NCBI RefSeq assembly: GCF_024223415.1
Contig: NZ_CP100500.1
Reading direction: 5' to 3' (one strand)
Origin: Escherichia coli
GTDB lineage: Bacteria; Pseudomonadota; Gammaproteobacteria; Enterobacterales; Enterobacteriaceae
Length of the DNA: 64,000 nucleotides
Below, in pieces: positions 27,401-30,400 of the stretch. The first letter of the stretch is position 1. The number at the start of each line of letters is the position of its first letter. The position numbers are program-made.

Positions 27401-30400
27401 GAAGCCACGGTCAGCCGCAGTAAACACGCCTTCATGCTCGCCCCACGACGTTGACGGTAAAATAACATCCGCCGCCGACGCGGTTTTGGTCATAAAGATG
27501 TCCTGAACGATAACCAGTTCCAGATCTTCAAAGGCTTTACGTACTGCCGACAGCTCCGCGTCAGTTTGTAGCGGATCTTCGCCCATAATGTACGCGGCAC
27601 GCACTTCGCCATGCGCTGCGCGGTGCGGCAGCTCGCTGATGCGATAACCGGTATGAGCAGGCAGGCTTTCCACGCCCCAGGCTTTGGCGAATTTCTCGCG
27701 GTTAGCCGGATCTTTCACGTACTGGTATCCCGGATACGTATCCGGCAGCGCGCCCATATCGCAGGCACCCTGCACGTTGTTCTGACCACGAACCGGGTTT
27801 ACACCCGCATGCGGCTTACCGAGGTTACCGGTCAGCATCGCGAGGCTGGTCAGAGAACGCACGGTTTCCACGCCCTGGTAGAACTGGGTTACACCCATGC
27901 CCCACAGGATGGCGGCGCTTTTCGCCTGGGCATACATCCGTGCCGCCTGACGAATCTCACTGGCGCTGACGCCGGTGATATCTTCAACCGACTCCGGCGT
28001 GTAGCCTTCAACGATTTTACGATACTCTTCAAAGCCTTCTGTACGTGAAGCGACGAACGCTTTGTCGTACAGATTTTCTTCAATAATGACATGGCCCATC
28101 GCATTCAACAGCGCGATGTTCGAGCCGTTTTTCAGTGCAATGTGCATGTCAGCAATGCGCGCGGTTTCAATTTTGCGCGGATCGCAGACGATAATTTTCG
28201 CCCCGTTACGTTTAGCGTTAATTACGTGATTCGCCACGATTGGGTGGGAATCCGCCGGGTTGTACCCGAAAACGAACACTAAATCGGTATTATCAATTTC
28301 GTTAATAGCATTGCTCATTGCGCCATTACCGACCGATTGGTGCAGACCTGCAACCGATGGGCCGTGTCAGACACGAGCGCAGCAGTCAACGTTATTGGTA
28401 CCAATAACGGCGCGCGCAAATTTTTGCATTACATAGTTGGTTTCGTTACCCGTACCACGCGAGGAGCCGGTCGTCTGGATGGCATCCGGACCGTACTTCT
28501 CTTTGATGGCGCTCAGGCGCTCGGCAACGTAATTCAGTGCCTCATCCCAGGAAACAGGTTCGAGTTTGCCGCCACGCTGGCGACGGATCATGGGGGTTTT
28601 CAGGCGCGGGGTCAGGATCTGGGTATCGTTAATGAAATCCCAGCCATAATAACCCTTCAGACACAGGGTACCCTGGTTGGTTTTCCCCTGCGCTGCCTCC
28701 GCCCGGACGATTTTGCCGTTATCGACGACCAGGTTGATTTTGCAACCTGATGCGCAATAGGGGCAAACCGTGACGACTTTTTTCATCGGTCTCGCTCCAG
28801 TTAATCAAATCACGCATACGCGCTCTCGACTACAGTATGCATCTTTTATGCCACATTTTATTTGGGGTCATTCCCTGATATTACGGGCACTATTTATTCA
28901 AAACTCTGACGAAAAACAGGCTGTCGTCAGTTTTGACGTGACGAAACGAAATACCGCGTGACGGCCATCACGCGGCAGACATTTTATTTTTTCTCGACGA
29001 CGGGAGCCGCCTGATACCCGCCGCCCAGCGATTTCATCAACTGAATGCTTTGGATCACCCGGCGGCTGTCCAGCATCAGTAATGACATCTCTTCGGCAAG
29101 CACCGGCAACCGGGCTTCGGTAGCCTGTAAGCGGCTGGTTAAGCCGCGCTGATAGGCGGCCTCGGCAGCGCGCTGGGTGAAGCGCGTTGCTTCCACGCGT
29201 TCAGCCTGCATCTCTCGCTCGTCGTTGAGCGTTTGCAGACGCGTGCCGTTGACGGCAACGTCACGCACCGCGTTCAGTACTGACTGGTTGTAACGTTCAA
29301 TCATCATGTTGCTGGCGGCGCGCGTGCCTTCGAGATTGGCATTCAACCGTCCACCGTCAAACAGCGGCAATTTCAGACCCGGGATAAAGTTGAACTGGCG
29401 ACTGGTTTTTTTGAATAAGGTATCCAGGTGGATGGCATCAAGGCCGAAAAACGCTTTGATATCAAAGCTCGGGTAGAACAGCGCCCGCGCGGAATCCACC
29501 TGATCTAATGACGCCTGAACATACCAGCGCATGGCTTGCAGATCCGGGCGTCTGGCGAGCAACTCATAAGAGAGCGTCGCCGGAATGCCGGTCTGTACTT
29601 GCGGTAATGCCACCGCTTTGATCTCCGGCATATCGCTGGCTCCCGCGCCAATCAATGCACGCAGGGATTCTCGCGTTTCGGTGATTTGCCCTTTAACGGC
29701 AGCAATTTGTTTATCGACCGCCAGAATCTGTGCCCGCGCGCCGTGGAAAGGCACTTGCGCTTCCAGACCGTGCGCCACTTTACTTTGGTGCGCTTTCACC
29801 GCGTAATCAATCACATCGCGAGTTTGTTCTAACAGATCGAGCATCTGATAGCTGGCCTGCATACTGTAATAAAGCTGCGCTACGCCCGTGGTCAGCGATA
29901 GCTCTACTGCTGCGGTTTCTGCCAGCGCGGCATTATGCGCGCCAATGGCGGCGGCAACCGCTGAGCGATGCACACCCCACAAATCAAGATCCAGTCCGGC
30001 AAACAAACCTACTGTGGCTTCCGTATAGTACGGCCCGTCCATACCCAGTGCTGGCGCATCCATCGCATAAGGGCTTAAAAAGCCGTTCGCCGAGACGCGT
30101 TGGCGGTTGAGCATCCCTAACGCTGCGACCTGTAATTGTGAACCGGCATCTAACAAATCGGCCTGGGACTGCGCTTTTTCTTCCCGCAGTTTCGCTTCGG
30201 CGAGGGTGTGTGAACCACTTAGCGTCCGTTGGATCAGCGCATCCAGCTGCGGGTCATTGAGTTGTTTCCACCACTGCGCCTGCGGCCAGCCGGAGCTGGC
30301 AAGATGAATATCATCGGCCAGTTTGATTTGTTCCGGTTTGAGCTGTTGATTAGGCGCAGAATCCTTGCGTACCAGGGCACAGCCGGAAATCAGCGTCGTG

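What the first reader, a model, noticed from the sequence alone, without database searches (positions are those of the whole stretch)
28787..28983. fdhF control region with sigma54 promoter and upstream activator repeats
A TGGCAT-N5-ATGCA element with correct -24/-12 spacing lies about 50 bp upstream of fdhF, and TCGTCA/TGACG repeats about 80-120 bp further upstream, consistent with FhlA- and formate-dependent activation. The inversion described above relocates this anaerobically regulated unit relative to the replication axis, which might subtly affect its expression.
Basis: partly seen in the sequence, partly recalled or inferred. Interest (0 to 1): 0.3.

Follow-up and report, generated by a model that had tools for sequence, protein, structure and literature searches.

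The report
Known fdhF sigma-54 promoter and enhancer
This 197-bp stretch is the well-studied control region of the E. coli formate dehydrogenase H gene, with a sigma-54 promoter and the formate-sensing activator's binding repeats upstream; it is intact and ordinary here.

Summary
The finding's coordinates (28787..28983) are exactly the mdtP-fdhF intergenic region of an E. coli chromosome. fdhF reads on the minus strand.

- **Observation:** It is correct. TGGCAT-N5-ATGCA lies at 28853..28838, 51 nt before the ATG at 28786. TCGTCA/TGACG-type repeats lie at 28944..28907.
- **Identity to known sites:** The region differs from K-12 MG1655 at 2 of 197 positions, both outside these elements. The promoter 17-mer is identical to the sigma-54 ChIP-seq site published for fdhF.
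- **Chance:** Neither motif alone exceeds chance in 64 kb. Conservation does. In fdhF upstream regions from 26 Enterobacteriaceae genera, the only invariant blocks are the repeats, the -24 and -12 elements, and the Shine-Dalgarno sequence.
- **Enhancer spacing:** 72 of 77 promoter-bearing orthologues carry a CGWCA-N4-TGWCG palindrome. It usually starts exactly 85 nt upstream of TGGCA, as it does here.
- **Inversion:** It is real. It spans about 31.8 kb between two inverted IS1397 copies and matches none of 5,426 complete E. coli genomes. It carries the whole fdhF unit intact. Any effect on expression is untested speculation.

Verdict: already known, low interest.

The parts
26639..28786 (-). 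fdhF coding sequence (formate dehydrogenase H, 715 codons, in-frame TGA selenocysteine codon 140)
   Evidence: Translation is intact with a single internal TGA. RefSeq annotates the matching gene as fdhF in 5,419 genomes. A SECIS_2 match lies at 28374..28320, 87 bits.
28795..28798 (-). Shine-Dalgarno GGAG, 8 nt before the ATG
   Evidence: It lies within ACTGGAGC (28801..28794), a nearly invariant block in 26 genera.
28827..28827 (-). Predicted transcription start (+1), giving a 41-nt leader
   Evidence: It is 19 nt downstream of the motif centre by the rule of PMC4591121. The resulting distance of 41 nt to the ATG equals the published value for fdhF. This is inferred, not mapped here.
28837..28841 (-). 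-12 element TGCAT (GC at 28840-28839)
   Evidence: Read. It is an invariant block across genera.
28848..28853 (-). -24 element TGGCAT (GG at 28852-28851)
   Evidence: Read. It is identical to the published sigma-54 ChIP-seq motif and invariant across genera.
28907..28912 (-). Promoter-proximal enhancer repeat TCGTCA (about -85 to -80)
   Evidence: Read. TTCGTCA is nearly invariant across genera.
28924..28944 (-). Enhancer core TCGTCACGTCAAAACTGACGA (about -117 to -97), holding the palindrome CGTCA-AAAC-TGACG at 28938..28925
   Evidence: Read. The palindrome is present in 72 of 77 sigma-54-positive fdhF orthologues and starts 85 nt upstream of TGGCA in 42 of them, as here. The same palindrome lies upstream of K-12 hydN and hyfA.
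28958..28963 (-). Distal CGTCAC repeat (about -136 to -131), overlapping the 3' arm of the mdtP terminator hairpin
   Evidence: GTCA occurs 22-25 nt upstream of the palindrome in 50 of 72 orthologues. K-12 has TGTCAC here. A role as a binding site is inferred.
28942..28977 (-). mdtP intrinsic terminator: 11-bp stem hairpin (28977..28952) plus a T-rich tail
   Evidence: Found by the terminator scan. The fold is -19.6 kcal/mol, z = -3.8, and 0 of 200 shuffles fold as well.
28984..30450 (-). mdtP coding sequence (efflux outer-membrane subunit); its stop codon bounds the control region

Best explanation
This is the native control region of E. coli fdhF. RNA polymerase carrying sigma-54 binds the -24/-12 element (TGGCAT-N5-ATGCA, 28853..28838) as a closed complex that cannot start on its own. 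The enhancer-binding ATPase FhlA, active when formate is bound, occupies the repeat cluster centred about 105 nt upstream of the start: TCGTCACGTCAAAACTGACGA, the proximal TCGTCA, and possibly the distal CGTCAC. FhlA contacts the polymerase by DNA looping and uses ATP to open the promoter. Transcription then starts near 28827, giving a 41-nt leader with a GGAG ribosome-binding site. The mdtP terminator just upstream insulates fdhF from read-through.

Shown here: the sequence elements, their near-identity to K-12, and their conservation and fixed spacing. Taken from the literature: sigma-54 binding, and dependence on FhlA and formate. Inferred: the exact start site, which repeats FhlA contacts, and any role for the distal repeat.
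For: - The 197-bp region differs from K-12 MG1655 at 2 positions, both outside the elements. It is present in 5,419 of 5,426 complete E. coli genomes.
- The most divergent E. coli copy keeps every element unchanged.
- The 17-mer equals the published sigma-54 ChIP-seq site for fdhF, with fold-above-threshold score 41, and the promoter is marked confirmed in EcoCyc.
- RpoN holoenzyme binds the fdhF/mdtP spacer in gSELEX.
- Salmonella fdhF is 29-fold sigma-54 dependent and has a matching site.
- Proteus mirabilis fdhF reporter activity falls in fhlA and rpoN mutants. Proteus loci fetched here show the same layout.
- An E. coli fdhF promoter-lacZ fusion is formate-sensitive and silent without fhlA.
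- 77 fdhF upstream regions, all but one from named or unclassified Enterobacterales, carry an element of at least 11.9 bits (all but one at least 12.8) within 34-150 nt of the ATG. Pasteurellaceae, Oxalobacter, Budviciaceae and the fdhF paralogues carry none.
- The invariant blocks in a 26-genus alignment are exactly the repeats, the -24 and -12 elements, and the ribosome-binding site.
- Palindrome-to-promoter spacing is 85-88 nt in 54 of 72 loci.
- The same palindrome or pentamer cluster sits 54-109 nt upstream of the sigma-54 elements of K-12 hydN, hyfA and hycA.
- No sigma-70-like promoter is found in 28600..29200.
Against: - Nothing was measured in this strain. fhlA and rpoN lie outside the window.
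- The promoter element alone is not above chance in the window, and three intragenic sequences score higher on the matrix.
- The published 13-site FhlA matrix scores the enhancer core at only 8.6 bits, which is not among the top 25 hits in the window. Matrix-based support for FhlA binding is therefore weak.
- The primary papers that mapped the enhancer and the start site (Birkmann and Bock 1989; Hopper et al. 1994; Leonhartsberger et al. 2000) could not be read here.
Confidence: 0.95

Rival explanations
1. The motifs are chance matches with no regulatory role, and fdhF is transcribed from an unrecognised sigma-70 promoter or by read-through from mdtP.
For: Single-motif statistics are unimpressive: 1 match against 0.59 expected for the promoter pattern, and rank 4 on the matrix.
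Against: - Cross-genus invariance is confined to these blocks, and their spacing is fixed.
- Sigma-54 binding is published for the identical sequence.
- No sigma-70-like site is present.
- A strong terminator lies between mdtP and the enhancer.
Confidence: 0.01
2. The repeats are bound mainly by an activator other than FhlA, for example its paralogue HyfR, or by a nitrate-responsive regulator.
For: The same CGWCA-N4-TGWCG palindrome lies upstream of hyfA, the operon that encodes HyfR. The published FhlA matrix scores the fdhF core only weakly.
Against: The fdhF promoter fusion is inactive in an fhlA deletion and is restored by plasmid-borne fhlA. Proteus fdhF depends on fhlA. The palindrome also precedes hydN, listed as FhlA-dependent in Salmonella.
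Confidence: 0.03
3. The IS1397-bounded inversion measurably changes fdhF expression by reversing its orientation relative to replication.
For: - The inversion is real relative to K-12 and to the 99.9%-identical strain SCU-316.
- GC skew changes sign inside the segment.
- In K-12, oriC lies near 3.93 Mb (my own knowledge, not tested here), so fdhF at 4.297 Mb on the minus strand is head-on to the fork. The inversion would make it co-directional. This assumes the flanks keep their usual placement.
Against: - The promoter, enhancer and terminator move as one unit and match SCU-316 exactly over 28700..29100.
- The regulators act in trans.
- The gene moves only about 26 kb along a replichore of about 2.3 Mb, so the dosage change is about 1-2% (my estimate).
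- No expression data exist.
Confidence: 0.08

Closest known systems
E. coli K-12 fdhF promoter and upstream activating sequence (Birkmann and Bock 1989, PMID 2668685; sigma-54 ChIP-seq site OS41, PMC4591121)
   Same: It is the same locus between the same neighbours (mdtP upstream, yjcO downstream), with the same 197-bp length. All elements are identical and the predicted leader is the same 41 nt.
   Different: There are two single-base differences, at 28963 (C here, T in K-12, in the distal repeat and terminator) and at 28862 (A here, C in K-12, 9 nt upstream of TGGCA). Both variants also occur in other Escherichia sequences.
Other FhlA-dependent sigma-54 promoters of E. coli K-12 (hycA, hypA, hydN, hyfA)
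   Same: Each has a -24/-12 element 30-41 nt before the ATG. YGWCR pentamer clusters lie 54-109 nt upstream of the hycA, hydN and hyfA elements. hydN and hyfA carry the same CGWCA-N4-TGWCG palindrome.
   Different: The hyc-hyp intergenic enhancer uses TGTCG/CGACA repeats in a different arrangement, without that exact palindrome. Spacings also differ: 75 nt for hydN and 109 nt for hyfA, against 85 nt for fdhF.
Salmonella enterica and Proteus mirabilis fdhF promoters
   Same: Both are sigma-54 dependent by experiment, and the Proteus promoter is also FhlA dependent. The Salmonella locus has the element 51 nt from the ATG and the palindrome 85 nt upstream, as here.
   Different: In Proteus the palindrome sits 119-121 nt upstream and the promoter element reads TGGCACACTCTCTGCA.

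Membership tests
Sigma-54 (RpoN) dependent promoter | GG and GC doublets exactly 10 bp apart within a TGGCAC-N5-TTGCW-like element | tested here: met
   TGGCATAAAAGATGCA lies at 28853..28838 and scores 13.3 of a maximum 21.2 bits on the 186-site matrix. It departs from consensus at two positions (T for C, A for T).
Sigma-54 (RpoN) dependent promoter | Correct orientation and a short distance upstream of the regulated gene, in an intergenic region | tested here: met
   It is on the same strand as fdhF and 51 nt from the ATG. Among 77 orthologues the distance is 34-150 nt.
Sigma-54 (RpoN) dependent promoter | Bound by sigma-54 holoenzyme | not testable with these tools
   ChIP-seq and gSELEX data are published for the identical K-12 sequence.
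Sigma-54 (RpoN) dependent promoter | Transcription starts about 12 nt downstream of the GC and requires rpoN | not testable with these tools
   The predicted start is 28827. The promoter is marked as experimentally confirmed in PMC4591121. Salmonella and Proteus orthologues are rpoN dependent.
Sigma-54 (RpoN) dependent promoter | No competing sigma-70 -35/-10 promoter | tested here: met
   The scan found no sigma-70-like site in 28600..29200.
FhlA-dependent upstream activating sequence (formate regulon) | Repeat cluster roughly 80-140 bp upstream of the transcription start | tested here: met
   The repeats span 28963..28907, which is -136 to -80 relative to the predicted start.
FhlA-dependent upstream activating sequence (formate regulon) | Sequence resemblance to the enhancers of other formate-regulon promoters | tested here: met
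   The same palindrome precedes K-12 hydN and hyfA, and the same pentamer family precedes hycA.
FhlA-dependent upstream activating sequence (formate regulon) | Good score on the published FhlA position-weight matrix (13 sites, PMC7658346) | tested here: inconclusive
   The best score is 8.6 bits for CGTCAAAACTGACG, and many unrelated window sites score higher. The matrix gives 15.4 bits at hyc-hyp but only 7.5 at hydN, so it appears dominated by hyc-type sites.
FhlA-dependent upstream activating sequence (formate regulon) | Conserved together with the sigma-54 promoter across species | tested here: met
   72 of 77 promoter-bearing orthologues have the palindrome. The blocks are invariant in a 26-genus alignment.
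FhlA-dependent upstream activating sequence (formate regulon) | FhlA binding and formate-dependent activation | not testable with these tools
   Published: the reporter is formate-sensitive and fhlA-dependent, and FhlA binds formate and the fdhF upstream region.

The most novel reading that the evidence does not exclude
The about 31.8-kb inversion between two inverted IS1397 copies is absent from all 5,426 complete E. coli genomes searched. It would turn fdhF from head-on to co-directional with replication and measurably change formate hydrogenlyase expression. Separately, the distal CGTCAC repeat buried in the mdtP terminator stem could be a genuine FhlA contact, coupling termination of mdtP to enhancer function.
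Probability: 0.06. Interest if true: 0.3.

Novelty: already known. Interest (0 to 1): 0.07.

Why it matters
It matters little beyond correct annotation. This is a textbook case of enhancer-dependent sigma-54 transcription, and this strain carries it intact.

The comparative result is a modest refinement of known biology, not a discovery. The enhancer consensus is tTCGaCACGTCAaatnTGACGA...TCgTcAg, with a preferred spacing of 85 nt to the -24 element.

The neighbouring inversion is the less ordinary feature. It does not touch the control region.

Tried and rejected
- **Single-motif statistics.** These do not separate the promoter from chance, so I relied on conservation and published binding data instead.
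- **Published FhlA matrix.** It scores the fdhF enhancer weakly, so I rejected it as a useful detector for this site.
- **Combined enhancer-plus-promoter pattern.** I measured the spacing by script instead.
- **Primary papers not held.** Wang and Gunsalus 2003 and Birkmann and Bock 1989 could not be read. One literature search failed on term syntax.
- **5' leader structure.** The fold of the 41-nt leader plus the first 27 nt of the coding sequence is not significant (z = -1.4), so I dropped the idea.
- **Rfam search of 26000..31000.** It found only the fdhF SECIS and no small RNA in the intergenic region.
- **Higher-scoring intragenic matrix hits.** The genes I placed them in or near by coordinate arithmetic (mdtO, phnC, nrfE) are not mentioned in the main text of the sigma-54 ChIP-seq paper.

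Full report
**What is at the coordinates.** The window is E. coli chromosome. fdhF lies on the minus strand at 28786..26639. It has 715 codons with one in-frame TGA at codon 140, followed by a selenocysteine insertion element at 28374..28320 (SECIS_2, 87 bits). mdtP ends at 28984 on the same strand. The finding's interval, 28787..28983, is therefore exactly the 197-bp mdtP-fdhF intergenic region. K-12 MG1655 has the same gene order and the same spacer length. A 401-bp query across the region matches 5,419 of 5,426 complete E. coli genomes, and 4,761 records match at 99% identity or more.

**The observation.** On the minus strand:
- TGGCAT lies at 28853..28848 and ATGCA at 28842..28838. GG is at 28852-28851 and GC at 28840-28839.
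- 51 nt lie between the element and the ATG.
- The repeats are TCGTCA (28944..28939), ACGTCA (28939..28934), TGACGA (28929..28924) and TCGTCA (28912..28907), plus CGTCAC (28963..28958).

The description is accurate. The repeats are 80-117 nt upstream of the predicted start, which is 54-91 nt upstream of the -24 element itself.

**Is it more than chance?** Not on motif counts alone.
- The degenerate promoter pattern occurs once in the window against 0.59 expected.
- On the 186-site sigma-54 matrix reproduced in PMC7658346, the element scores 13.3 bits and ranks fourth in the window. Three intragenic sequences score higher. By coordinate arithmetic these lie in or near mdtO, phnC and nrfE, and none of those gene names appears in the main text of the E. 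coli sigma-54 ChIP-seq paper.
- The CGWCA-N4-TGWCG palindrome occurs twice against 0.27 expected.
- The repeat cluster is the unique densest YGWCR cluster in the window, at 5 in 45 nt. Eighteen of 100 shuffles reach that density somewhere.

The case therefore rests on context, conservation and published experiments.

**Identity with the characterised K-12 region.** The 197 bp differ from MG1655 at two positions, 28963 and 28862, and neither lies in the core elements. The most divergent E. coli copy found (93.8% identity over the 401-bp query) keeps the enhancer core, the proximal repeat, and the -24 and -12 elements unchanged.

The 17-mer GTGGCATAAAAGATGCA is site OS41 in the sigma-54 ChIP-seq map of E. 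coli. That site is assigned to fdhF, has a fold-above-threshold score of 41, and is marked as an experimentally confirmed promoter. Its predicted start is 41 nt before the gene (PMC4591121). Applying the paper's rule (start 19 nt downstream of the motif centre) gives 28827 in the window, which is 41 nt before the ATG.

Further published support:
- RpoN holoenzyme selects the fdhF/mdtP spacer in gSELEX (PMC8743547).
- Salmonella fdhF is 29-fold sigma-54 dependent and has a bound site TGGCATAAAACATGCATA (PMC3844500).
- In Proteus mirabilis, fdhF reporter activity falls in fhlA and rpoN mutants and rises with formate (PMC7658346).
- An E. coli fdhF promoter-lacZ fusion is formate-sensitive, silent in an fhlA deletion, and restored by cloned fhlA (PMC13277316).

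**Related sequences.** A scan of one genome per species for the FdhF N-terminal motif returned 120 loci.
- 77 fdhF upstream regions carry a TGGCAY-N5-NTGCA-type element 34-150 nt before the ATG. It scores at least 11.9 bits in all of them, and at least 12.8 bits in all but one. Apart from one metagenome bin labelled only 'Proteobacteria', the 77 are named or unclassified Enterobacterales: Citrobacter, Salmonella, Klebsiella, Enterobacter, Kosakonia, Cedecea, Buttiauxella, Hafnia, Edwardsiella, Proteus, Providencia, Morganella and others.
- Pasteurellaceae, Oxalobacter, Budviciaceae and the divergent fdhF paralogues carry nothing comparable.
- In a 26-genus alignment, the only invariant or nearly invariant blocks are TCGWCACGTCA, TGACGA, TTCGTCA, TGGCATA, TGCAT and the ribosome-binding block ACTGGAGC.
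- 72 of the 77 loci carry the CGWCA-N4-TGWCG palindrome. Its start lies 85 nt upstream of TGGCA in 42 loci and 85-88 nt in 54. The minority classes are at 76-77, 106-111 and 119-121 nt. The window has 85.
- The consensus from 71 distinct sequences is tTCGaCACGTCAaatnTGACGAnnncCTgntttTCgTcAg.
- A further GTCA lies 22-25 nt upstream of the palindrome in 50 of 72 loci. In E. coli this falls in the 3' arm of the mdtP terminator hairpin.

**Comparison within K-12.** The same palindrome precedes hydN (75 nt from its -24 element) and hyfA (109 nt). hycA has a cluster of the same pentamer family 54-87 nt upstream. The published 13-site FhlA matrix is a poor detector for fdhF. It scores 8.6 bits at fdhF and 7.5 at hydN, against 15.4 at hyc-hyp.

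**Mechanism.** Sigma-54 holoenzyme binds the -24/-12 element in a closed complex. Formate-activated FhlA, bound at the repeats about 105 nt upstream of the start, contacts the polymerase by DNA looping and opens the promoter with ATP. The dominant fixed spacing fits a requirement for face-of-helix alignment, but that is inference. The mdtP terminator has an 11-bp stem, folds at -19.6 kcal/mol (z = -3.8), and has a T-rich tail. It should block read-through into fdhF. No sigma-70-like promoter is present.

**The inversion.** Relative to K-12, window 25724..57519 (K-12 4,296,306..4,325,923) is inverted with respect to both flanks.
- The segment is bounded by two perfectly complementary 1,457-nt arms at 24285..25741 and 57498..58954. 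RefSeq annotates the equivalent elements as IS1397, of the IS3 family.
- Strain SCU-316 is 99.9% identical to the window. It has both copies at the same two sites but in the K-12-like order.
- No complete genome of the 5,426 searched carries the yjdM-IS-yjcO junction.
- GC skew changes sign within the segment, as expected for a recent inversion or an assembly inversion across the repeats.
- The whole fdhF unit moves intact. The promoter is about 3.1 kb from the nearest breakpoint.

From the known position of oriC in K-12 (my knowledge, not tested here), fdhF would change from head-on to co-directional with replication and move about 26 kb. Any effect on expression is untested.

**Verdict.** The feature is already known and intact here.

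Noticed in passing
window 24285-25741 and 57498-58954 (segment 25742-57497 between them): Two identical IS1397 copies in inverted orientation bound an inversion of about 31.8 kb relative to K-12 and to the 99.9%-identical strain SCU-316. The yjdM-IS-yjcO junction is found in none of 5,426 complete E. coli genomes. It could be a real recent inversion or an assembly error across the repeats.
   Followed up: partly
window 28952-28977, overlapping 28958-28963: The 3' arm of the mdtP terminator hairpin contains CGTCAC. This aligns with a GTCA motif conserved 22-25 nt upstream of the enhancer palindrome in 50 of 72 species, including genera such as Enterobacter and Klebsiella whose aligned upstream sequence shows no counterpart of the E. 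coli hairpin arms. The sequence may serve both as terminator and as a distal activator site.
   Followed up: partly
window 28860-28886: A moderately conserved block (CGTAATATCAGG...ACCCACA) lies between the enhancer and the -24 element in many Enterobacteriaceae. Its role is unknown. A DNA-bending protein site or a nitrate-regulator site are untested possibilities.
   Followed up: no
window 36180-45540: This stretch has no counterpart in the K-12 als-rpiB region. In SCU-316 the equivalent DNA encodes a sugar ABC transporter, a lyxose/mannose isomerase, an aldolase, a kinase and a two-component system in place of the allose operon.
   Followed up: partly
window 56503-56518 (+), 30526-30541 (+), 63197-63212 (-): Three intragenic sequences score higher than the fdhF promoter on the sigma-54 matrix (15.5, 14.9 and 13.5 bits). 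The genes I placed them in or near by coordinate arithmetic (phnC, mdtO, nrfE) are not mentioned in the main text of the E. coli sigma-54 ChIP-seq paper.
   Followed up: partly
window 28320-28374 (-): A canonical bacterial selenocysteine insertion element (Rfam SECIS_2, 87 bits) starts 4 nt 5' of the fdhF UGA codon (28370-28368) and extends 3' of it.
   Followed up: yes
loci L016, L020, L042, L066, L073, L093, L100, L115: Several Enterobacterales carry a second, divergent fdhF-like gene (N-termini such as MKTVTTVCPYCASGCKMQ or MKNVITVCPYCASGC) with no sigma-54 element upstream. This suggests the paralogues are regulated differently.
   Followed up: no
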